The notes beneath the pieces were generated by a model. The model made no database searches, had not been told where the DNA came from, and was given only the letters and a program-made list of their open reading frames with translations. From a virus (taxonomy: Duplodnaviria; Heunggongvirae; Uroviricota; Caudoviricetes), in the IMG/VR virus record IMGVR_UViG_2675903504_000004, positions 1-24,012 of that record: 24,012 nucleotides of DNA; one strand, written 5' to 3'. This document shows positions 2,912-21,760 of this stretch, one piece after another. How positions within the stretch are numbered: the first letter of the stretch is position 1; each line of letters opens with the position of its first letter. The position numbers and the translations under genes were made by a program.

Positions 2912-3486
2912 ACCGGGCCTCCGGTTGTATCGCCGCCTTTCAGGACGCCAGTATGCTGATGCGCATCAACCACGATCCCGTTAGAACTCATCGCTCCGCC
3001 GCCCTGGGTAACGCCACCATTGATCACCACTTCGCTGTTAATGCGCGTGCGGTCAGCCTCCAGTACAAACTCACTGGTTTTCATGGTGATGTTGTCAGCA
3101 GCCTCAATGACCATTGATTTGATGCCCCTGACATACCAGCGCCCGGTGGCGGGTTCGTATTCAAACCAGCCACCGTCAGGATGTTCTGTCACGCAGGCGT
3201 CCGCCGACGTCGACGGTGGTGCGAACTGATTCGAATAGACAGCGGGCAGCGCAAAGGCGGTTTCCAGATTGCCGCCCAGACTCAGCAGCACCACCTGCTC
3301 ACCTTCCGATGGTCGCCACCATGTACGGGCATTCCCGGCACGCAGCGTCAGCCAGCTGATCCAGTTGGTTTCAAGCTCGCCCGTTTTCACCCGGCAAAGC
3401 CAGTTTTCCCTGTCCACTTCGGTGACTACCCCTGTGCGGATCAGGTTGGTGATAAGGCGCATGATTTCGGTTAATTGTGCGTTCAT
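2908..3486 (-). CDS. V: Baseplate spike protein gpV
   Basis: 192-aa protein MNAQLTEIMRLITNLIRTG... with ...WWRPSEGEQVVLLSLGG..., similar to P2 gpV; synteny S-V-W. Confidence 0.9.
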   Translation of the reverse strand: MNAQLTEIMRLITNLIRTGVVTEVDRENWLCRVKTGELETNWISWLTLRAGNARTWWRPSEGEQVVLLSLGGNLETAFALPAVYSNQFAPPSTSADACVTEHPDGGWFEYEPATGRWYVRGIKSMVIEAADNITMKTSEFVLEADRTRINSEVVINGGVTQGGGAMSSNGIVVDAHQHTGVLKGGDTTGGPV

Positions 3487-9504: not shown

Positions 9505-11271
9505 ATGAACACCACACTGACACCCGCAGATCTCGATCCCCGTCGGCAGGCCATGCTGCTGTACTTTCAGGGATACCGCGTAGCCCGCATTGCTGAAATG
9601 CTGGGCGAGAAAGTTGCAACCGTTCACAGCTGGAAAAAACGCGACAAGTGGGGTGACTATGGGCCACTGGATCAGATGCAGCTCACCACCGCCGCACGCT
9701 ACTGCCAGCTCATTATGAAGGAGCACAAAGAAGGGAAAGATTTCAAAGAGATTGACCTGCTGGCGCGCCAGTCTGAGCGCCACGCGCGGATCGGCAAGTT
9801 TAACAATGGCGGCAACGAAGCCGACTTAAACCCTAACGTCGCCAACCGCAACAAAGGCCCGCGCCGTCAGCCGGAAAAAAATGTCTTCACCGATGAACAG
9901 ATTGAGAAGCTGGAAGAAATCTTCCATTCCTCCATGTTCAACTACCAGCGCCACTGGTGGGAAGCCGGAAAAACCAACCGCATCCGCAACCTGCTGAAGT
10001 CACGCCAGATCGGCGCGACCTTTTACTTTGCCCGTGAAGCCCTGATTGACGCTCTGCTTACCGGACGTAACCAGATTTTCCTTTCCGCCAGCAAGGCACA
10101 GGCCCACGTCTTTAAGCAGTACATCATCGACTTCGCCAAAGAAGTGGAAGTGGAGCTGAAAGGCGATCCGATGGTGCTTCCCAACGGGGCCACACTGTAT
10201 TTCCTCGGCACCAATGCCCGCACGGCCCAGAGTTACCACGGCAACCTGTATCTGGATGAATATTTCTGGATACCGAAATTCCAGGAGCTGCGCAAAGTGG
10301 CTTCCGGTATGGCTATTCACAAAAAATGGCGACAAACCTATTTTTCCACGCCATCCAGCCTGACACACAGTGCTTATCCGTTCTGGTCCGGTGCGCTATT
10401 CAACCGTGGGCGCAATAAAGCCGACAAGGTGGACATCGACCTGTCCCACAGCAATCTGGCTCCAGGCCTGCTGTGTGCAGACGGGCAATACCGCCAGATA
10501 GTCACCGTGGAAGATGCGGTGCGCGGCGGCTGTAACCTGTTCGACCTTGACCAGTTGCGCATGGAATACAGCCCGGACGAATACCAGAACCTGCTGATGT
10601 GTGAATTCGTGGACGATCTCGCGTCCGTGTTCCCGCTCAGCGAGCTGCAGGCGTGCATGGTGGACAGCTGGGAAGTCTGGACCGACTTTCATGCACTGGC
10701 CCTGCGCCCGTTTGGCTGGCGCGAAGTGTGGATCGGTTATGACCCGGCAAAAGGTACGCAAAACGGCGACAGCGCCGGGTGCGTGGTGGTGGCTCCGCCA
10801 GCCGTGCCGGGCGGTAAGTTCCGCATTCTTGAGCGTCACCAGTGGCGCGGGATGGACTTCCGTGCCCAGGCGGACGCCATCAAAAAACTGACTGAACAGT
10901 ACAACGTGACCTATATCGGTATCGACTCGACAGGTGTCGGTCACGGGGTTTATGAGAACGTAAAAGCGTTCTTTCCTGCCGTCCGGGAGTTTGTCTACAA
11001 CCCCAACGTTAAAAACGCCCTGGTACTCAAGGCCTACGACATTATCAGCCACCGCCGTCTGGAGTTTGACGCCGGACACACCGACATTGCGCAGTCATTC
11101 ATGGCAATCCGTCGCGCAACCACCGCCAGTGGCAACCGCCCGACCTATGAAGCCAGCCGCAGCGAAGAAGCCAGCCACGCCGATCTGGCCTGGGCAACGA
11201 TGCACGCACTGTTTAACGAACCGCTGCAGGGCGAGTCCGCCAATACCAGCAATATTGTGGAGATTTTTTGA
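9505..11271 (+). CDS. P: Terminase large (ATPase) subunit gpP
   Basis: 588-aa protein of P2 gpP size, in the expected divergent position and co-oriented with Q; assigned by length, synteny and overall resemblance to P2 gpP. Confidence 0.95.
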   Translation: MNTTLTPADLDPRRQAMLLYFQGYRVARIAEMLGEKVATVHSWKKRDKWGDYGPLDQMQLTTAARYCQLIMKEHKEGKDFKEIDLLARQSERHARIGKFNNGGNEADLNPNVANRNKGPRRQPEKNVFTDEQIEKLEEIFHSSMFNYQRHWWEAGKTNRIRNLLKSRQIGATFYFAREALIDALLTGRNQIFLSASKAQAHVFKQYIIDFAKEVEVELKGDPMVLPNGATLYFLGTNARTAQSYHGNLYLDEYFWIPKFQELRKVASGMAIHKKWRQTYFSTPSSLTHSAYPFWSGALFNRGRNKADKVDIDLSHSNLAPGLLCADGQYRQIVTVEDAVRGGCNLFDLDQLRMEYSPDEYQNLLMCEFVDDLASVFPLSELQACMVDSWEVWTDFHALALRPFGWREVWIGYDPAKGTQNGDSAGCVVVAPPAVPGGKFRILERHQWRGMDFRAQADAIKKLTEQYNVTYIGIDSTGVGHGVYENVKAFFPAVREFVYNPNVKNALVLKAYDIISHRRLEFDAGHTDIAQSFMAIRRATTASGNRPTYEASRSEEASHADLAWATMHALFNEPLQGESANTSNIVEIF

Positions 11272-12341: not shown

Positions 12342-14108
12342 TTAATTATTATCGTATAACTCCTGAATTTTTGCTGGATTAGCAAAAAACCTTGCAGGAT
12401 AAGCATTTGGATAATTATCTTCGATATAATTTTCTGTCCTAGCTATTAATGCTGCTAAATTAGCAGTGATTTGTGCTGAATCAGGAGCAAGCTGAATGGT
12501 ACTATTCTGTAAATCTGACACCATATTCAACAGCACTGAAGCATAATATCTATTACCATGAGTTATTATTAAATGACGGCGACTATGCGTTGATTTATCT
12601 GTAGCTGCTAAAGTTGAGCTAATAGCACGTTCTATCACACGAAAATGGTTAACAGCATTTATTAACTTGATACCACTTAATCGCGGATTGAAAATTGTTC
12701 TATATAATGACCCTTCAAAATTTTCAAAAAACCTACCACGATTAGATTTTAAAGTTGCAACTATAGTATTATTTTTACTTAAGCAAGCTAGAGCATTCAA
12801 AGCCTCATCGAGATCAATTACCTTGGCGTTAGACTGTAAATAATCCTCATCGGTTCGCAATAATTGGTATTGATACCCTTCAAGCACAAGCTCTCTCGCC
12901 AGTCTATGCTGATCGGGTTGTTGTGAAGCAAAATCTCTTCCTAAAACTCTATTCTGGAAATTATTAGCTCTGGTTATTGCATTGGCATTGAGATCATTTA
13001 CATCATTATTAATTTCAATAAAACGAACAGGGACTTTAACTTGATAAATTCTATCGCCTAGCACATCCATAACACTGCCTAAACTACTCACAGTTTGCGC
13101 GCCGTTGATCACACTCACATCTTTAAAATCGAAAACCCCTCTTTCAGTGCCTGCAGCTGCGTTTCTTCTGTGAGGAATTAACTCGTTCACTAGTAACGTA
13201 ATACCGTTATTGTAAAACCAAAACATTTCTGGATTATCAATTGCAGTTTTTTTTATTTCTTCGTTAACATCTGTCTTACCAAGCATATTTCTTATGTTTT
13301 TCGTAAAAAGGCGGGTTCCATATTGTTTCCACCAATTCCCAACCTGGTCCCCAGCTAAAGTTCCATAAAATGCTCTGTAAGGTTCATTAATAAACCCATA
13401 GCGTTCAACTTCTACGCCATCCAAATCAATTTGACCTCTTGAGCCAGTCTGCAACCAATGGACTAAATCCTCTGATGAAATCAAATGAACTTGAAACCCC
13501 CATTCTTCTTTCGGTGATTCTGTCGGGGTAAACGACGCTTCATTTAATTCACGTTGCCACTCTTGCATATCACGTAAAATATCTTCTGAGGCACCTTTTT
13601 TCCCTGTGTGAGTCATAGCGAAGATAAATTTATAATCAAATGAATTAAGAGCTGCGCTTATATCTGAACTCTTATCTTGAAGAATCTGGTCAAAAAGTTC
13701 ATATCGTTCATTCTGAAGTTTTTCACAAGCATCCTTGAAGCACACAAAATCAGGTCTGCTCCAAGTACCATTTCCAGCCTGATTAAATTTGGACTGAACG
13801 ACTACAACAATTTTTTCACTATGATTTATGACTATGCCATCAATGCCTCCATCCTCAGAACTGTCGCATACAGACTCACCTGCATGCTTTTCATCAACAC
13901 CACCAAGTTGATACATCGTAAACGCCGCCAGAGCCCTACTTGCCATTTTAATATTGTAATCTTGTTGACTGGGTTGGCACTCTCGCTTATGAACATAGTC
14001 TTCAAACCTTTCTCTCAAAACACTACCAAGCCTTAGAGCTATAACTTGCGCCGTCGCCGCTGCAGCTACAGCGTTATCCTCAACTCGGAGATCTACAACG
14101 AATGCCAT
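12342..14108 (-). CDS. Cargo protein, 588 aa: N-terminal PD-(D/E)xK-like nuclease motif plus large C-terminal region with AIPR-like (abortive infection) features; candidate anti-phage defence gene
   Basis: AT-rich ORF between portal Q and the cos-like site. Start at ATG 14108 (AAGGA at about 7 nt; ORF-track start 14135 is TTG). N-terminal ...EDGGIDGIVINHSEKIVVVVQSKF... fits a D...(E/Q)xK nuclease signature. Central ...VSVINGAQTVSSLG... is recalled as AIPR-family-like (from memory, unverified). No counterpart in the P2 core gene set. Confidence 0.55.
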   Translation of the reverse strand: MAFVVDLRVEDNAVAAAATAQVIALRLGSVLRERFEDYVHKRECQPSQQDYNIKMASRALAAFTMYQLGGVDEKHAGESVCDSSEDGGIDGIVINHSEKIVVVVQSKFNQAGNGTWSRPDFVCFKDACEKLQNERYELFDQILQDKSSDISAALNSFDYKFIFAMTHTGKKGASEDILRDMQEWQRELNEASFTPTESPKEEWGFQVHLISSEDLVHWLQTGSRGQIDLDGVEVERYGFINEPYRAFYGTLAGDQVGNWWKQYGTRLFTKNIRNMLGKTDVNEEIKKTAIDNPEMFWFYNNGITLLVNELIPHRRNAAAGTERGVFDFKDVSVINGAQTVSSLGSVMDVLGDRIYQVKVPVRFIEINNDVNDLNANAITRANNFQNRVLGRDFASQQPDQHRLARELVLEGYQYQLLRTDEDYLQSNAKVIDLDEALNALACLSKNNTIVATLKSNRGRFFENFEGSLYRTIFNPRLSGIKLINAVNHFRVIERAISSTLAATDKSTHSRRHLIITHGNRYYASVLLNMVSDLQNSTIQLAPDSAQITANLAALIARTENYIEDNYPNAYPARFFANPAKIQELYDNN

Positions 14109-14289
14109 TAATTTTTCCTTATAGAATATGTACAACGTTAGCAGTGATTAAAAGGTTACTCGTTAAGCGGAAATTGTACTACAACATTCTACTAAATATG
14201 GATATATCAATGAGTAAGAACTCATCTTTGCTAACTCACATACATTGTTAAAAATACTTAGCTTCGCTGTTCACCCCGTCGCCGCGCGC

Positions 14290-14308
14290 TCGTATCCCCG
14301 CCACGCCT
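14290..14308 (-). other. Candidate cos (cohesive-end) site of the P2/186 type
   Basis: Minus strand reads GGCGTGGCGGGGATACGAG, close to the remembered P2 (GGCGAGGCGGGGAAAGCAC) and 186 cohesive-end sequences. It lies in a short GC-rich island between two AT-rich cargo genes and is oriented toward Q, as in P2. Confidence 0.5.
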
Positions 14309-14356
14309 GCCCGCTTTGTGTAGTGGTTTTCATGCACCTGCATGACATAAGCAAAA

Positions 14357-14376
14357 GCCCGCCAGCTCTGGCGGGC
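14357..14376 (-). terminator. Rho-independent terminator downstream of the HNH-domain ORF
   Basis: Perfect GC-rich inverted repeat GCCCGCCAG-CT-CTGGCGGGC, followed on the minus strand by TTTTGC. Confidence 0.55.
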
Positions 14377-14489
14377 ATCAGCAAAAACGATCCTCAAACG
14401 ATCATGCGATTTCATGCGGCATAGACATGCGTTGGCAAAAATGTACGAAATACTCAGCTTATAGGAAATGGTCTTTTTCCAACCTCCAG

Positions 14490-15209
14490 TTAGCCAAAGC
14501 AGAAACCAATATTGCAATTTGAAACTCCACAGTTGTGAAATTGATGTGGACCTACTCTTAGCTTGTGTTCGTCTCCTACAATCCGAGTCCCCTTAACCAA
14601 CATATCTAATCTTTCCACAATCAATCTTTCAGGCACATCAACTTTAATAATTAAACGAGGACCTTTCCTTTTTTCTATAATAGTTATTCTAGGACCGACA
14701 ACCTGAACATCCCAATGCCTTGCACTACAAACCCACTCATTCTTAATTAATTCAAGATTAACAATACCTTGACTATCGTAAAATTTACCCGAAATAAGAA
14801 AAGCATTATTTTCTTTTTCAATGGTTAACAATGGCTCATTTTGAAACATTATTGGTACAGTACAGGATTCAAACGTCGCACCACCAAATATTATTGTTGG
14901 ATGCCTATCAGAAAAGTCCAATATATCTGCCACATTCCCTTTTTGTAAGGCTGCAGGAGATTCCATTGCTTTAATTATTTTCTCTTTAGAGTAAAGACGT
15001 TTCGTTACTTTCGCATGGCACGTAGGACAAAGTAGTGCTATTGCATTTGGAGAGTGCTCCTTTGCATCAGCGTATGTGGGAATTACATGCTCATACTCAA
15101 CAATGGGAGAAGCACAAACAACGCAACCGAAGCCACAGCGCTGCCTTACCTCCAGTTTTACAGGTTCAGGAATTGTTCTAGATAACCCATGCTTGTTAAT
15201 AGTTGTCAT
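14490..15209 (-). CDS. HNH endonuclease-domain protein with uncharacterised ~170-aa C-terminal region; cargo gene
   Basis: 239-aa AT-rich ORF; N-terminal ...RQRCGFGCVVCASPIVEYEHVIPTYADAKEHSPNAIALLCPTCHAKV... shows the Cys pairs and His/Asn/His pattern of an HNH zinc-finger nuclease. ATG at 15209 with AAGGTAAGG upstream; own terminator downstream. Confidence 0.65.
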   Translation of the reverse strand: MTTINKHGLSRTIPEPVKLEVRQRCGFGCVVCASPIVEYEHVIPTYADAKEHSPNAIALLCPTCHAKVTKRLYSKEKIIKAMESPAALQKGNVADILDFSDRHPTIIFGGATFESCTVPIMFQNEPLLTIEKENNAFLISGKFYDSQGIVNLELIKNEWVCSARHWDVQVVGPRITIIEKRKGPRLIIKVDVPERLIVERLDMLVKGTRIVGDEHKLRVGPHQFHNCGVSNCNIGFCFG

Positions 15210-15260: not shown

Positions 15261-15331
15261 CTAACGCCTCGCACAGCTCGTTGTTCAACCTTGCTGACGC
15301 CAGAAGCAAGTTCAGACGCCAGCAACGTTTC

Positions 15332-15565
15332 TTAATGCAGCCAGCTGTCGTCTTCCCACACCTTCTGCATAATTTTCATCACTTGCTTCCTTTCTTCGTC
15401 CAGTTGCAGTCCGGTCAGTTCCACACCGTTAGAGCTACCTTTGCGGATGCGAATTACCGTTTTTGGATATAGGGGGCGCAGATTGCGGTAAAGCTCGGAT
15501 TCAAGGGCGTCCAGGGTAGACTGGCTAATCTTCTGCTCTTTATCGATCATTATTTCAATGCGCAT
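15332..15565 (-). CDS. dinI: DinI-family protein
   Basis: 77-aa protein MRIEIMIDK...TLDALESEL...VIRIRKGSSNGVELTG...DEERKQVMKIMQKVWEDDSW aligns with E. coli DinI as remembered. Start at ATG 15565 with GAGGTGA upstream; the ORF-track start 15637 is an upstream extension. Confidence 0.8.
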   Translation of the reverse strand: MRIEIMIDKEQKISQSTLDALESELYRNLRPLYPKTVIRIRKGSSNGVELTGLQLDEERKQVMKIMQKVWEDDSWLH

Positions 15566-15575
15566 AAAAGTCACC

Positions 15576-15764
15576 TCAGCTGATGACATCCATTGAGCGG
15601 TTGTATTCGTGGGTTCTGATTTTTGCCATGAGTTCATCTGTCAGTTCAGAAACCCACTGCAAAGCCAGCCCCTTCTCTTCATCACTACACTCACTAGCCG
15701 CTACAAGTTTAAGAAAAAAATCAATGCGCTGGAGCTTCAAAGACTCCAAAAAATAGTCCTGCAT
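15576..15764 (-). CDS. Small SOS-regulated protein (62 aa), first gene of the LexA-controlled operon; possible Tum-like antirepressor
   Basis: ATG at 15764 with TAGGAGGAAAG upstream and the LexA box about 45 bp further upstream. The ORF-track start 15866 would place the LexA box inside the coding region. Function inferred only from position. Confidence 0.5.
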   Translation of the reverse strand: MQDYFLESLKLQRIDFFLKLVAASECSDEEKGLALQWVSELTDELMAKIRTHEYNRSMDVIS

Positions 15765-15807
15765 CTTTCCTCCTATGACACCACAAGCAACACTGTATGT
15801 ATAACCA

Positions 15808-15823
15808 CTGTTTATATTTACAG
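15808..15823 (-). promoter_or_regulatory. LexA (SOS) box CTGT-N8-ACAG with overlapping promoter
   Basis: CCACTGTTTATATTTACAGTAT matches the LexA consensus TACTGTATATATATACAGTA in the CTGT/ACAG arms and AT-rich centre. It overlaps a TATACT/TTTACA promoter-like region on the minus strand. Confidence 0.75.
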
Positions 15824-15917
15824 TATATAATAATCTTACTGATGTAAAACGTTTTTTTACGTTCATCAGCCTGATATGCCTGGTATTATTAAGAGCACGA
15901 ATTGTTAACCCGCGTAA

Positions 15918-18332
15918 TTAATACAGGTTTCGCCACTTATCATCTTCCTGCAAACGCTGGTTCCGATAGAAGATACGCAGGCCTGCTCCTGACGGAATAC
16001 TGCCGCCGCGAAGGAGTAAATCGACCTCTTTCTCGCTGCCATCAAATCCTCTGGACTTCAGTTCATAGACGAGCTGCTGTCGCTGATGGTCTGTAATTCG
16101 CTGTTTGTAGTCTTTACGCCGTTTCGGTTTCACCAGGCGTAACCTTGCAGCCAGTTCCCGGCGCTCTTTTTTGCTCATACTGTGCAGGTAATCGTGCAAC
16201 TCCTTGTCATCCATGCGGGTAATGTCCGTCCTGGTATCCCCATCAGCTGATTTGTCTTTCCCTTGTTGGTTCAAATTTTCAGCAAGGGGACAGTTATTGC
16301 CACGAGTCCAAGGGGCGCAAGCGCCCTGGTCGGCTGCCGCCTCCTGAACGTCAACGGCCTTACGAACCATTTTCCACTTCACTGCATGAGTGCAGATCTT
16401 GCCCTCTGCAATGGGTGACCAGATGCCATAAATACGAATGCCGTGATCGCCATAGGCGGTCGGCTCTTCGTTGATTTCATAAGCGGTTCTGATCAGGTGA
16501 TATTTGCGGGGAACCAGTACGCCGCCCTGCTTCATGATGTAGGTGGCAAAACAACCAGCATCAGCAGCAGCCAGGATTGCATCAAGGCGCGGGTTATCCA
16601 GTACCGGCGCACCTGCTTTTTTGTCCCCCTGTTGCCTTGCCGCCTGACCAGCCAGCAATCGCAGTTCACGGTAAGCCTGACGCCCCGGAATGCCAAAGAA
16701 GCGGAATTGCTGAACACGATGCAGAGACGCCCAGGCATTAACGTATTCAGCATTATCACGCAGGGATTTCCCCGTTTCCTTGCTGATCTCGCCAGCCAGA
16801 CCACGCCCGTCAATGTTCTTACTGATGTATTTCGCGATGTAGCTTGTTGGCGTACCTTTGCGCGGGTTAATCAACTCAGACTTAAAGCGCGGCCCAGTGT
16901 TATTGCCCAGCTCCTCGCGGTCTTCACGGATGGCAAACTTACGCAGTAATACAGTGATGGCGCGGCGGTCTTTTTTGCGCATAAAACACAACAGGTGCCA
17001 GTGAACTGTACCGTCATGATGCGGCTCAGCCACCCGCACGCCATACCAGCGCAATCCGGCTTTGTGCATCGCCTTACGAAATGCAGCAAACATGCCGACC
17101 AGGTAATCACTACTTTGTCTTACCGTCGCATTTGTCCAGGTTGGGTTGGGCCTGCCGTTATTTAGCGTGGAATGGAAACGTGACGGACAGGTGATGGTGT
17201 AGAAAACGGCACAGTCACTGCGCATTTCTGCGATAAGCTCCAGACCTTTAACACAGGCCATCATCTCATTGCGGCGATGCGCCGGGTTGCTGCTGCTGGC
17301 GTTTACCACATCTTCCATATCCAGCGTGTCACCGTCTTCGTTCACCAGTTCATGAGAACGGAAAAACTCCAGCGACTTACGGCGCTGCTCACGTTTATGC
17401 ATCACGGCTTCATAGCTGACATAGGGAGATGCTTTTTTGCTGACCAGACAGACAGCACGCAACTGCTCTTCCCGCCATTCGCAACGCATCTTCCATAATT
17501 TCCTATGCCACCAGTCGGCGCACAGCATACGCGCCAGCGAACCCGGAATGAGTTCATAGGGCACGGGTTTACGGCGGTTTCTTTTCCGACGGAGTTGCTC
17601 AAACGCAGGCGGGATGACATCCAGTCGCAGGGTTTCTGCTGCCACCTTTTCCCATGTCTTGCGGATTTCTTCTGGCTTAACATCATCGGTGGCGTACAAA
17701 TCACCACAAGCGGCATCAAGACACATGCTCATATGCGCAGCGACAAGAGTAGACAGGCGTTTCACCTGATCCTGACTCATTTCAGGCAGGATCAGCAGGC
17801 CGTCCAGCCCTTCATGGCTTGCCATAAAGCGAAAAGAAGTGGATAGCTGACTCTCGCGTACATGCTCCAGTCGTTCCAGACATGGCTTAATCGTCTCACG
17901 CAAATAGCGGGAATAAGCCTTTGGCCTGCCCAGGCTGCTGAAGTATTCAATACGTTGCATCAGCGGCTTGCTGATATGGGAAGGCTGGGCGCTGACATCT
18001 GCCAGAATGACCATGTCTGGGTTAAAACGCTGCTGCTCATGCGCCAGCTTTGCCCGACTAATGAGCTTATCCTGCTCCATTTCGCGCTGGACAGGATCAC
18101 GGGATTCATTAAAGAAATAACGCTCCCAGACCTGATCACTCAGTGCCTCACGGCGCAGCAGTTCCTGCTCGTTATCGGCAGCGTACAGAGTGATCAGGTT
18201 TGAAAGCGCAGAAACCGGCGCAACTTCCGCCGGGTCCAGATAAGGGTTAATGGCCTTTTTCGGGCTGTTCCATGAGAACGATGCGGCAGCCTCGTTAAAG
18301 CCGCAGCAGTTGTTCATATCGGCATGGTTCAT
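15918..18332 (-). CDS. A: Replication initiation endonuclease gpA (rolling-circle initiator)
   Basis: 804-aa protein with ...[17 protein letters not shown]... and ...[13 protein letters not shown]..., which match the conserved P2 gpA motifs. Confidence 0.95.
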
Positions 18333-20223: not shown

Positions 20224-20733
20224 TCACAGCAAACCGAATGAAGCACCGAGGCCAGTTACAGTATCAACTGCACTTGCCATCGCAGGATTAACCTGTAAAC
20301 GGGCCTGCAATGAAACAGCAGCTAACGCCATCAGTCGTGTAACAGAGTTAATGCTGCTGATAGCATCACGACGACCTGCACTGGTTTTTACATCGCCAGA
20401 TACCGCACCTGCAGCAACACGCCCGATCTCTGCGGTTGCACTCATGACGTAATGTGGCAGTTTCTCTTTTGCCACCTCATTAATCGGTACACATGGCAGG
20501 CAGTGAATCTGTGCCAGAAAACCGTCTACCAGCGTTGAATCTTCCGTCAGATCGGTAAGTAGCCAGATATCTGGCGCATTGAGCTGATGCGGTTGATCTG
20601 GGTTGAGTTTGTTTCGCAGAGTCTGGACATTCATTCCTGCACGTTCTGCCAGCTTCGCCATATTGTGACGAAGTGCAAAAGCTCTACAGGCTTCATCAAA
20701 ATGCGGGTGTTTGGAAATCTTATAATCAAACAT
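20224..20733 (-). CDS. cII: Phage regulatory protein CII (186 CII / CP76 family)
   Basis: 169-aa protein MFDYKISKHPHFDEACRAFALRHNMAKLAERAGMNVQTLRNKLNP...; size, HTH-like N-terminus and position after the Apl/Cox-like gene match 186-type CII. Confidence 0.75.
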   Translation of the reverse strand: MFDYKISKHPHFDEACRAFALRHNMAKLAERAGMNVQTLRNKLNPDQPHQLNAPDIWLLTDLTEDSTLVDGFLAQIHCLPCVPINEVAKEKLPHYVMSATAEIGRVAAGAVSGDVKTSAGRRDAISSINSVTRLMALAAVSLQARLQVNPAMASAVDTVTGLGASFGLL

Positions 20734-20765: not shown

Positions 20766-21008
20766 TTACTTACCAACAATGACGCGGAAGTTGGAATGAC
20801 CGAGGGATTCACGGACCTGATCGGTTTTGTACATTAAATAACGCAGGTTTACGCGGCCTTTGTTTTTTTCTTTCTTGACCATGTATTTAGCAAGCTGACC
20901 ATGGTGAATTTTTTGATACACGGAGCCGCGGGAGATACCTTCCCATTCCGCGAACTCTGCAGGCGTAGCCATCTCTTTTGGTACACGAATTGAAATATCA
21001 GTGCTCAT
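20766..21008 (-). CDS. apl: Apl/Cox-like excisionase and switch regulator
   Basis: 80-aa protein; ...TPAEFAEWEGISRGSVYQKIHHGQLAK... parallels the P2 Cox HTH region (PYQEFAKLIGKSTGAVRRMIDKGKLP); first gene of the rightward lytic operon, divergent from cI. Confidence 0.7.
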   Translation of the reverse strand: MSTDISIRVPKEMATPAEFAEWEGISRGSVYQKIHHGQLAKYMVKKEKNKGRVNLRYLMYKTDQVRESLGHSNFRVIVGK

Positions 21009-21064
21009 AGTGCAGTATCTCCCGATTAAGGTTTGGTTTACGTCGTTTTATCTCGTTTTACTTG

Positions 21065-21112
21065 ATTCAATATTTGATACATCGAGATACTACGATCCAA
21101 TATTTGATACGT
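21065..21112. promoter_or_regulatory. Lysis-lysogeny switch region with direct repeats (candidate operators)
   Basis: Two 17-bp direct repeats TYCAATATTTGATACRTC spaced about 30 bp apart, plus a CGTTTTA x2 repeat nearby, in the 119-bp gap between divergent apl and cI. Confidence 0.5.
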
Positions 21113-21127
21113 CAACAGGATTAAAAA

Positions 21128-21760
21128 ATGATACAGGTAAAGGTTGGAGAGAATACAGGGGGAAGAGAGGCTATCCATAGACTAATGGCAGCCTATGATT
21201 TCAAGTCCAGACAGCAACTTTGCGATCACTTAGGCGCATCAAAAAGCACCATGGCAAACAGATACTTAAGAGATAGTTTTCCTGCAGAGTGGGTGATTCA
21301 GTGCGCCTTGGAAACAGGAGTTTCTTTACTGTGGCTAACCACCGGACAGGGGGAGCCAGGTCCAAACATTGAACCTAAAAAAAATATCAATTCCGTGAAC
21401 TCCAGCAAGGTTGTACCTCTTTCTGAACTAGTATCTCCTGAAATTGACAAGGCGACTCTCAACGGTGGTTTATTGGTCGATGCTGGAAAAGCAATCATTG
21501 ATAGCAGCATACTCCCCTCAGACTCAAGCAACCTACTGCTGGTGACTACTTCTGGTGATTCTTATTTAATAGATCGCAACCAAACACCACCAGTAAATGG
21601 TATGTGGTTAGTCGATATCGACGGGATAAAAAGCATCGTTAAATTGACCCGACTCCCGGGAAACAAATTAGTAGTGCATCAGGATGATTCATCGTTTGAG
21701 TGCGGTCTGGATGACATTGAGGTAGTAGGCCGCGCACTGAAAATCATTAAGAGCCTTTGA
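21128..21760 (+). CDS. cI: Immunity repressor CI (186-type: N-terminal HTH plus C-terminal oligomerisation domain)
   Basis: 210-aa protein with an HTH-like segment (RQQLCDHLGASKSTMANRYLR), AGGA SD, directly upstream of int and divergent from apl. Confidence 0.75.
   Translation: MIQVKVGENTGGREAIHRLMAAYDFKSRQQLCDHLGASKSTMANRYLRDSFPAEWVIQCALETGVSLLWLTTGQGEPGPNIEPKKNINSVNSSKVVPLSELVSPEIDKATLNGGLLVDAGKAIIDSSILPSDSSNLLLVTTSGDSYLIDRNQTPPVNGMWLVDIDGIKSIVKLTRLPGNKLVVHQDDSSFECGLDDIEVVGRALKIIKSL

What the first reader, a model, noticed from the sequence alone, without database searches (positions are those of the whole stretch)
15332..15830. LexA-box-controlled two-gene module (small ORF plus DinI-like): candidate SOS induction circuit
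A near-consensus LexA box (CTGT-N8-ACAG) overlaps a promoter about 45 bp upstream of a 62-aa ORF with a strong SD, followed 10 nt later by a DinI-like gene. Phage 186 is induced through a LexA-repressed tum antirepressor operon in the equivalent position, so this module probably links prophage induction to the SOS response. The small ORF has no features I recognise and may be the antirepressor.
Basis: partly seen in the sequence, partly recalled or inferred. Interest (0 to 1): 0.6.

Follow-up and report, generated by a model that had tools for sequence, protein, structure and literature searches.

The report
SOS-controlled prophage antirepressor module (split tum)
This is the already-described DNA-damage switch of Fels-2/186-type prophages: the host LexA repressor keeps a small antirepressor gene (tumA) and a DinI-like gene silent until DNA damage, so the finding is real and correctly read but not new.

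Summary
The window is a 186/Fels-2-type P2-like prophage of E. coli. Just downstream of replication gene A, on the minus strand, lie:

- a promoter (TTTACA, 17 nt, TACTGT) whose -10 is the left half of a LexA box;
- a 62-aa ORF with an AGGAGG Shine-Dalgarno;
- a 10-nt gap;
- a 77-aa DinI-family gene.

The 62-aa protein is 61/62 identical to Fels-2 STM2728 and to E. coli HS ECHS_RS04495. The latter is the "tum" gene whose in-frame deletion abolishes mitomycin C induction of prophage DuoHS. Profile comparison shows the 62-aa protein is homologous to the N-terminal half of phage 186 Tum. The DinI-like protein matches the C-terminal half. This is the split tumA/tumB arrangement annotated in PSP3 and noted for Fels-2.

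Two refinements:

- The operator is a double, overlapping SOS box, about 80% identical to the ColE1 colicin operator.
- The identical TumA accompanies at least 15 divergent CI repressor types whose N-terminal domains are the conserved part.

Interest is low.

The parts
15843..15848 (-). -35 hexamer TTTACA of the tumA promoter
   Evidence: Sequence. It lies 17 nt upstream of TACTGT and is invariant in the 79 of 80 related loci that keep this promoter region (the exception is L007). The layout is analogous to the annotated p95 of phage 186 (TTCACA, 18 nt, TACTGT). The promoter assignment is inferred, not measured.
15820..15825 (-). -10 hexamer TACTGT, which is also the left half of LexA box 1
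   Evidence: Same arrangement as the annotated -10 of 186 p95. An alternative -10, TATACT (15827-15822), with a 15-nt spacer cannot be excluded. The scanner called neither.
15806..15825 (-). LexA (SOS) box 1, TACTGTAAATATAAACAGTG; core CTGT-N8-ACAG at 15823-15808
   Evidence: 17/20 to consensus, 0 of 100 shuffles reach this. Intact in 75/80 related loci. A box at the equivalent place is present in 186, PSP3, Fels-2, DuoHS and distant homologues.
15791..15810 (-). LexA box 2 (degenerate left half), CAGTGGTTATACATACAGTG; core GTGG-N8-ACAG at 15808-15793, sharing one base with box 1
   Evidence: It aligns with the second box of the ColE1 cea double operator and of colicin/klebicin plasmids. Fels-2's copy is identical to ColE1's 20-mer. 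In 80 loci its half-sites vary in at most 2 loci per position, whereas spacer positions vary in 12-36 loci. LexA binding was not tested.
15769..15774 (-). Shine-Dalgarno AGGAGG of tumA
   Evidence: Sequence. It ends 4 nt before the ATG at 15764 and is conserved in related loci.
15576..15764 (-). tumA: 62-aa antirepressor gene (stop included)
   Evidence: 61/62 identical to Fels-2 STM2728 and to E. coli HS ECHS_RS04495, the gene deleted as 'tum'. Profile homology to 186 Tum residues 3-44. The start is fixed by the conserved N-terminus M-x-D-x-F-x-E of the family. The AlphaFold2 model is a two-helix hairpin with pLDDT 88.5.
15332..15565 (-). tumB: 77-aa DinI-like gene (stop included)
   Evidence: Pfam DinI at E 6.6e-23. 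100% identical to Fels-2 STM2726.1, 78% to PSP3 TumB, and 41-42% identical to 186 Tum residues 71-145. Intact in 78/80 related loci.
15287..15329 (-). GC-rich hairpin just after the dinI-like stop, with no U tract; this is the end of the conserved module
   Evidence: Fold shows an 11-bp stem, with z = -1.5 for the 91-nt stretch folded. Similarity to Fels-2 and DuoHS stops right after the stop codon. A terminator function is uncertain.
21128..21760 (+). cI: 186-type immunity repressor, the presumed target of TumA
   Evidence: Pfam Phage_CI_repr at 5.4e-31 plus Phage_CI_C at 5.6e-28, with no Peptidase_S24. That it is the target is inferred from 186 Tum biology (PMC3121763, PMC7708051).

Best explanation
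This is the SOS induction module of a Fels-2/186-type prophage, in its split form (tumA plus tumB).

Proposed mechanism:
1. In the lysogen, host LexA sits on a double, overlapping SOS operator that covers the -10 and start region of the tumA promoter. This keeps a two-gene transcript off.
2. DNA damage activates RecA and LexA cleaves itself, so the promoter opens.
3. TumA is made. It is a 62-aa acidic two-helix protein homologous to the N-terminal half of 186 Tum. It binds the 186-type CI repressor, which has no self-cleavage domain, and stops it binding its operators.
4. The early lytic promoter then fires and the prophage excises and replicates.
5. The co-transcribed DinI-like protein (TumB, the counterpart of the C-terminal half of Tum) acts on RecA filaments and modulates the SOS signal. 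It is not itself the inducer.

What is shown and what is inferred:
- Shown here: the sequence anatomy, the homologies and the conservation.
- Shown in the literature for a 61/62-identical gene: the requirement for tum and for cleavable LexA.
- Inferred: LexA occupancy of both boxes, direct TumA-CI binding in this phage, and the role of TumB.
For: Anatomy.

Context: gpA, 186-type CI without a peptidase domain, CII and Int.

Identity to tested or annotated genes:
- Fels-2 STM2728 and STM2726.1, and PSP3 tumA/tumB, annotated 'UV induction of prophage'.
- E. coli HS ECHS_RS04495 is the 62-aa gene directly upstream of the DinI-like gene. It is the locus deleted as tum in PMC12055606. There, the tum deletion and lexA(Ind-) both abolish mitomycin C lysis.

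Homology to 186 Tum:
- N-terminal half: hhalign probability 94.9%, E 4.5e-8, in register.
- PHROG cross-hits: the ORF hits phrog_8554 at 2.4e-8 and phrog_1993 at 2e-3. The Tum N-terminal 70 residues hit phrog_8554 at 3e-12 and phrog_698 at 6.7e-6.
- C-terminal half: 41% identity, E 3e-24.

Footprint and operator:
- LexA boxes are kept upstream of distant homologues with unrelated flanks and in 75/80 close relatives.
- The double operator is 28/35 (about 80%) identical to the ColE1 cea operator, counted by hand on the alignment. Colicin genes are reported to bind two LexA dimers at such boxes (PMC2994835).

Literature on the split: PMC3121763.
Against: - Nothing was measured on this sequence. 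LexA binding, the transcript and the TumA-CI interaction are all inferred.
- Pairwise BLASTP of the 62-aa protein against 186 Tum finds nothing. Identity to PSP3 TumA and to the Tum N-terminus is only 21-22%. The profile match to PSP3 TumA is weak (E 0.004, probability 8.6%).
- The promoter is not called by the consensus scanner, because TACTGT matches TATAAT at only 3 of 6 positions.
- The DuoHS deletion could in principle lower DinI-like expression through translational coupling, so that experiment does not fully separate the two genes.
- The primary paper on Fels-2 (Bunny et al. 2002) could not be read.
Confidence: 0.9

Rival explanations
1. The DinI-like protein, not the 62-aa protein, triggers induction, for example by acting on RecA filaments. 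The small ORF would be an accessory or non-functional reading frame.
For: The DinI-like gene is the only part with a recognised domain and is intact in 78/80 loci. The DuoHS tum deletion could be partly polar on it.
Against: - Distant TumA homologues keep the LexA box and the position after gpA but have no DinI gene downstream (L087/L088, L090/L091).
- PSP3's upstream gene carries the antirepressor activity, and non-polar dinI deletions in Gifsy prophages had no effect on induction (PMC3121763).
- CI has no RecA-dependent cleavage domain.
- The 62-aa family is under clear protein-level conservation.
Confidence: 0.04
2. The module is an SOS-induced accessory ('moron') operon that benefits the host by tuning the SOS response. 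It is not needed for prophage induction.
For: It lies at the edge of the variable cargo region that here carries HNH and AbiU-like genes. DinI homologues modulate RecA.
Against: The tum deletion and lexA(Ind-) both abolish induction in DuoHS, whose gene is 61/62 identical. The module is homologous to the tested 186 antirepressor. It is conserved while the cargo next to it is swapped.
Confidence: 0.04
3. Only box 1 is a working LexA site. The second, degenerate site is a decayed relic or a chance resemblance to colicin operators.
For: Its left half is GTGG instead of CTGT. 186, PSP3 and distant homologues manage with one box. No binding data are available.
Against: - The 20-mer is identical (Fels-2) or 18/20 identical (window) to the second box of the ColE1 cea operator.
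- Colicin operators of this type are reported to bind two LexA dimers (PMC2994835).
- Its half-sites are nearly invariant in 80 loci while the spacer is highly polymorphic.
Confidence: 0.3

Closest known systems
Phage 186 SOS operon (p95-tum-orf97) and the Tum antirepressor
   Same: - Position right after gene A.
- The LexA box forms the -10 (TACTGT) of the promoter.
- N-terminal Tum domain homologous to TumA, and C-terminal DinI-like part homologous to TumB.
- 186-type CI as target. 186 also makes the DinI-like part separately from an internal GTG start.
   Different: - In 186 the two parts are fused in one 146-aa protein; here a stop codon and a 10-nt gap separate them.
- 186 has a single LexA box.
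- The downstream gene orf97 is unrelated to the HNH gene found here.
- The N-terminal domains are only about 21% identical.
PSP3 tumA/tumB, Fels-2 STM2728/STM2726.1 and E. coli HS prophage DuoHS tum (ECHS_RS04495)
   Same: - Same split two-gene layout.
- Fels-2 and DuoHS proteins are 98% (TumA) and 100% (TumB, Fels-2) identical to those of the window.
- Box 1 and the promoter are identical.
- DuoHS tum is experimentally required for mitomycin C induction (PMC12055606).
   Different: - PSP3 TumA is only 22% identical and has a single box.
- CI repressors differ strongly: 58% (Fels-2), 46% (DuoHS) and 36% (PSP3) identity to the window's CI. The switch DNA also differs.
- The cargo downstream of the module differs.
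Gifsy-1/2/3 LexA-controlled dinI-antirepressor (gfoA/gftA) operons of Salmonella
   Same: A LexA-repressed operon that pairs a small antirepressor with a DinI homologue and induces a prophage whose repressor is not cleaved. Those antirepressors can act in trans on other prophages (PMC3121763).
   Different: The gene order is reversed (dinI first), and they sit in lambdoid prophages with a different repressor family. Sequence relatedness of GfoA/GftA to TumA was not tested here.
Double overlapping SOS boxes of colicin operons (ColE1 cea and relatives)
   Same: Two LexA boxes share one base. About 35 nt are 80% identical to ColE1, and box 2 of Fels-2 is identical to that of ColE1. Both systems control a lethal output.
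   Different: In colicin promoters the boxes lie just downstream of the -10. Here box 1 itself forms the -10, and the -35 is 18 nt closer. The genes downstream are unrelated.

Membership tests
186-type Tum antirepressor module (split tumA/tumB form) | Located immediately downstream of replication gene A in a P2-like prophage with 186-type CI/Apl/CII switch | tested here: met
   gpA lies at 15918-18332 (PF05840). CI has Phage_CI_repr plus Phage_CI_C, and CII is PF06892. The gene order is the same as in 186, PSP3, Fels-2 and DuoHS.
186-type Tum antirepressor module (split tumA/tumB form) | LexA box overlapping the promoter | tested here: met
   The 20-mer matches the consensus at 17/20 and its left half serves as the -10. 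The box is conserved in relatives. This is a sequence-level test only.
186-type Tum antirepressor module (split tumA/tumB form) | First product homologous to the N-terminal (antirepressor) half of Tum | tested here: met
   hhalign of the family profile against 186 Tum gives probability 94.9%, E 4.5e-8, residues 3-44 to 3-44. PHROG families cross-hit. Pairwise BLASTP is negative.
186-type Tum antirepressor module (split tumA/tumB form) | Second product homologous to the DinI-like C-terminal half of Tum | tested here: met
   41% identity over 75 residues, E 3e-24. 78% identical to PSP3 TumB.
186-type Tum antirepressor module (split tumA/tumB form) | Cognate repressor is not a self-cleaving (S24) repressor | tested here: met
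   No Peptidase_S24 hit in CI.
186-type Tum antirepressor module (split tumA/tumB form) | Product binds CI and prevents operator binding; gene needed for SOS induction | not testable with these tools
   Known for 186 Tum (cited in PMC3121763 and PMC7708051). The requirement for induction is shown for the 61/62-identical DuoHS gene (PMC12055606).
DinI family (PF06183) | Match to the family profile above the curated cut-off | tested here: met
   81.3 bits against a cut-off of 24.2.
DinI (chromosomal equivalog, NCBIfam NF007893) | Score above the equivalog cut-off | tested here: not met
   42.7 bits against a cut-off of 111. It is a DinI-like paralogue, not the host DinI. RecA binding was not testable.
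Colicin-type double SOS operator | Two LexA boxes overlapping by one base, with a strong first box and a GTGG-type second box | tested here: met
   Alignment with ColE1 cea and with colicin and klebicin plasmids.
Colicin-type double SOS operator | Two LexA dimers bound, giving tight repression and late induction | not testable with these tools
   Reported for colicin operators (PMC2994835). Not measured for tumA.

The most novel reading that the evidence does not exclude
Two points are, as far as the searched literature shows, not spelled out.

1. The Fels-2-type tumA promoter carries a colicin-type double SOS operator, about 80% identical to that of ColE1. It may have been exchanged between Col plasmids and P2-like phages. 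This would set a high threshold and late timing for prophage induction, unlike the single box of 186 and PSP3.
2. One invariant TumA serves at least 15 CI repressor types with different operators. It may do so by binding their conserved N-terminal DNA-binding domain. If so, any such prophage could cross-induce heteroimmune relatives in the same cell.
Probability: 0.35. Interest if true: 0.4.

Novelty: already known. Interest (0 to 1): 0.22.

Why it matters
The module explains how this common prophage family senses DNA damage. A copy at 90% identity or more of at least part of the 1.6-kb stretch is found in 1,091 of the 1,129 matching records; the matches fall in 1,125 of 5,426 complete E. coli genomes. 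This is relevant to antibiotic-triggered phage release.

The practical value of the check is an annotation fix:
- The 62-aa gene is still labelled 'hypothetical protein' almost everywhere. It has no Pfam family and is often over-extended to 96 aa. It can safely be named tumA, the Tum-family antirepressor.
- The double colicin-type operator and the one-antirepressor-many-repressors pattern are modest, testable additions to a known circuit.

Tried and rejected
Searches that found nothing for the 62-aa protein:
- BLASTP against 186 Tum gave no alignment. Only profiles show the homology.
- Pfam and NCBIfam gave nothing.
- The PDB sequence search with the family profile gave nothing.
- Foldseek of the AlphaFold2 model against the PDB returned only generic helical hairpins, best E 0.39. 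No functional inference was drawn.

Other negative or uninformative results:
- The consensus promoter scan did not call the tumA promoter. The promoter was assigned by analogy with 186 p95.
- Rfam on the whole window gave no match.
- RNA folds of the 5' UTR (z = 0.15) and of the tumA/dinI junction hairpin (z = -1.3) were not better than shuffles. The hairpin after dinI has z = -1.5 and no U tract.
- The HNH gene downstream is not a homologue of 186 orf97 or Fels-2 STM2726, so the '186 SOS operon' analogy stops at the DinI-like gene.
- Bunny et al. 2002 (PMC151935) is not held. What it says is taken second-hand from PMC3121763.

Rejected reading: lambda-like induction by RecA-mediated CI cleavage, because CI has no S24 domain.

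Full report
**What is there.**
Reading the minus strand from 15860 to 15330 gives, in order:
- TTTACA (15848-15843), then 17 nt, then TACTGT (15825-15820);
- the 20-mer TACTGTAAATATAAACAGTG (15825-15806);
- AGGAGG (15774-15769) and an ATG at 15764;
- a 62-codon ORF whose stop ends at 15576;
- a 10-nt gap, then an ATG at 15565 opening a 77-codon ORF that ends at 15332.

The core CTGT-N8-ACAG occurs once in the window. It would not be significant alone, since 0.34 are expected. The 20-mer, however, is within 3 mismatches of the E. coli LexA consensus, and none of 100 shuffles reached this. The 77-aa product is a clear DinI-family protein (PF06183, E 6.6e-23). The 62-aa product has no Pfam or NCBIfam hit.

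**Context.**
The window is a P2-like prophage of the 186/Fels-2 type. The genes are:
- gpA (15918-18332, PF05840);
- a Dam-like methylase;
- CII (20224-20733, PF06892);
- an 80-aa Apl/Cox-position gene (20766-21008);
- a divergently transcribed CI (21128-21760), made of the 186-type HTH and C-terminal domains with no S24 peptidase;
- an integrase.

The same gene order is annotated in 186, PSP3, Fels-2, phage vB_EcoM-813R9 and the E. coli HS prophage. Nearly identical copies of the 1.6-kb stretch occur in E. coli chromosomes. Some match to it is found in 1,125 of 5,426 complete genomes.

**What the two genes are.**
- The 62-aa protein is 61/62 identical to Fels-2 STM2728 and to E. coli HS ECHS_RS04495. 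The DinI-like protein is identical to Fels-2 STM2726.1 and 78% identical to PSP3 TumB.
- PSP3 annotates the pair as tumA ('similar to 5' end 186 tum; UV induction of prophage') and tumB ('similar to dinI and 3' end of 186 tum').
- The DinI-like protein aligns with 186 Tum residues 71-145 at 41% identity, E 3e-24.
- Pairwise BLASTP of the small protein against Tum is negative, and identity to the Tum N-terminus and to PSP3 TumA is only 21-22%. Profiles nevertheless connect them.
  - The ORF hits phrog_698 (3.6e-38), phrog_8554 (2.4e-8) and phrog_1993 (2e-3).
  - The first 70 residues of Tum hit phrog_1993 (2e-23), phrog_8554 (3e-12) and phrog_698 (6.7e-6), in register.
- An exhaustive phmmer search found only 66 representative clusters. 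An alignment of 28 diverse members matches 186 Tum residues 3-44 with hhalign probability 94.9%, E 4.5e-8. The match to PSP3 TumA is weak (E 0.004).
- The family's conserved N-terminus (M-x-D-x-F-x-E) fixes the start at 15764. The 96-aa ORF from the ATG at 15866, which many databases call, would start upstream of the promoter.
- The AlphaFold2 model is a two-helix hairpin with pLDDT 88.5. It has no informative structural neighbour.

**Published evidence.**
- Lemire et al. 2011 (PMC3121763) state that Tum looks like an antirepressor fused to DinI. [quoted passage not shown] The tum deletion and lexA(Ind-) strains no longer lyse or form viral foci after mitomycin C.
- In the RefSeq record, ECHS_RS04495 is the 189-nt 'hypothetical protein' gene immediately upstream of the DinI-like gene. 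Its promoter and box 1 are identical to the window's.

**Conservation of the operator.**
- Of 80 IMG/VR loci that encode an identical TumA, 75 keep CTGT-N8-ACAG at the expected place. Four have one half-site change. One (L007) has the promoter region replaced.
- The DinI-like gene is intact in 78 of the 80.
- Distant homologues (34-45% identical) also sit right after gpA. They are preceded by strong boxes in otherwise unalignable DNA:
  - TACTGTATATGCATACAGTG in L087;
  - TACTGTACGCATATACAGTT in L089;
  - TACTGTAATTATATACAGTG in L090.
- Two of these lineages have no DinI gene; ogr follows instead. This argues that TumA, not DinI, is the essential output.

**Refinement 1: a double operator.**
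- Directly after box 1 comes GTGG-N8-ACAG (15808-15793), sharing one base with it.
- A search of plasmids with the 82-nt promoter region hit more than 600 small Col-type plasmids at 80-90% identity. In the two examined, the match lies just upstream of a colicin-like or klebicin gene.
- ColE1 itself reads TGCTGTATATAAAACCAGTGGTTATATGTACAGTA upstream of cea. That is 28/35 identical to the window, counted by hand on the alignment. Its second 20-mer is identical to that of Fels-2.
- In the 80 loci, the half-sites of box 2 vary in at most 2 loci per position, while three spacer positions vary in 12-36 loci. This is the pattern expected of an operator.
- 186, PSP3 and the distant homologues have a single box.
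- Whether LexA fills both sites here is untested. I rate it about 0.7.

**Refinement 2: one antirepressor, many repressors.**
- The 80 loci were selected for 100% TumA identity, so TumA invariance is by construction. Their CI proteins nevertheless fall into 15 clusters below 70% identity.
- Identity to the window's CI is 38-100% overall, 61-100% in the N-terminal domain (residues 11-76) and 27-100% in the C-terminal domain. 186 and PSP3, whose Tum N-domains are very different, have CI N-terminal domains only 38-42% identical.
- The switch DNA between cI and apl differs among the window, Fels-2, DuoHS and 813R9.
- This fits TumA recognising the conserved part of the DNA-binding domain. It predicts cross-induction among heteroimmune relatives, in line with the trans-acting antirepressors of Lemire et al. 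This is inference only.

**Mechanism, with status of each step.**
1. LexA represses PtumA through a double operator covering the -10 and start site. The sequence is shown; binding is inferred; the lexA(Ind-) phenotype is shown in DuoHS.
2. SOS induction derepresses a tumA-tumB transcript. This is inferred from the 10-nt gap and from the GAGGTGA Shine-Dalgarno overlapping the tumA stop, conserved in 77/80 loci.
3. TumA inactivates the non-cleavable CI. This is inferred by homology to 186 Tum; the requirement for induction is shown in DuoHS.
4. TumB modulates RecA filaments. This is inferred from family membership; its contribution is unknown, and dinI deletions in Gifsy prophages had no effect.

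**Verdict.**
It is already known (PSP3 tumA/tumB, Fels-2, DuoHS tum). Interest is low. What remains is an annotation gap and two modest, testable refinements.

Noticed in passing
window 15790-15825 (- strand); L095 5058-5096; L092 about 1501-1548; L094 about 1501-1542: The tumA operator is a double overlapping SOS box, about 80% identical to the ColE1 cea operator and to those of colicin and klebicin plasmids. Box 2 of Fels-2 is identical to box 2 of ColE1. 186 and PSP3 have a single box.
   Followed up: yes
window 21128-21760; loci L007-L086: Prophages encoding a 100%-identical TumA carry CI repressors of at least 15 clusters below 70% identity. Lengths are 188-214 aa and about 308-318 aa. 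The N-terminal domain is the conserved part (61-100%) and the switch DNA differs, suggesting one antirepressor serves many immunity types.
   Followed up: partly
window 15786-15804 (positions -40, -36, -35, -27, -24 and -22 relative to the tumA ATG): There are sharp polymorphism hot spots in the spacer of box 2 and the 5' UTR, with 11-36 of 80 loci differing. The flanking half-sites, the -35 and the Shine-Dalgarno are nearly invariant.
   Followed up: partly
window 12342-15209 (- strand): Variable cargo lies right after the module: an HNH-domain protein (239 aa, phrog_6544) and a 597-aa Abi-like protein (PADLOC AbiU 5.8e-24; phrog_1841 'Abi alpha-like'). Similarity to Fels-2 and DuoHS stops at the dinI-like stop codon, so this is a swap point for probable defence genes.
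   Followed up: partly
window 21064-21083 and 21094-21113: A 20-nt direct repeat, GATYCAATATTTGATACRTC, spaced 30 bp apart, lies between apl and cI. These are candidate CI operators and are absent from the Fels-2, DuoHS and 813R9 switch regions.
   Followed up: no
window 15570-15587 (- strand): A small hairpin (GTCATC/GGTGAC) followed by TTTTAT spans the tumA stop codon and the dinI-like Shine-Dalgarno. It could couple translation of the two genes or act as a weak attenuator, but the fold is not better than shuffles (z = -1.3).
   Followed up: partly
L087/L088 and L090/L091 (gene at 3001-3207 or 3001-3192): Distant TumA homologues (34-39% identical) keep the position after gpA and a strong LexA box. 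They have no DinI-like gene; an ogr/delta gene follows on the opposite strand.
   Followed up: partly
L007 about 9900-10000: One IMG/VR locus with an identical tumA has unrelated GC-rich DNA in place of the -35, the -10 and box 1, upstream of about -42. This natural variant may be uninducible or differently controlled.
   Followed up: no
L093 (K. pneumoniae p1878-9k) 1501-1545 and 1909 onward: A 9.1-kb record has the end of gpA plus the tumA promoter and box 1 (97.8% identity). Similarity then breaks after box 1, and a group II intron reverse transcriptase gene follows. This may be an intron insertion at the operator.
   Followed up: no
window 15576-15866; proteins P0005, P0007, P0018: Public gene calls often extend the ORF to 96 aa from an ATG upstream of the promoter. 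Names are 'hypothetical protein' or, in one UniRef entry, 'Levan regulatory protein'. No Pfam family exists for TumA.
   Followed up: partly
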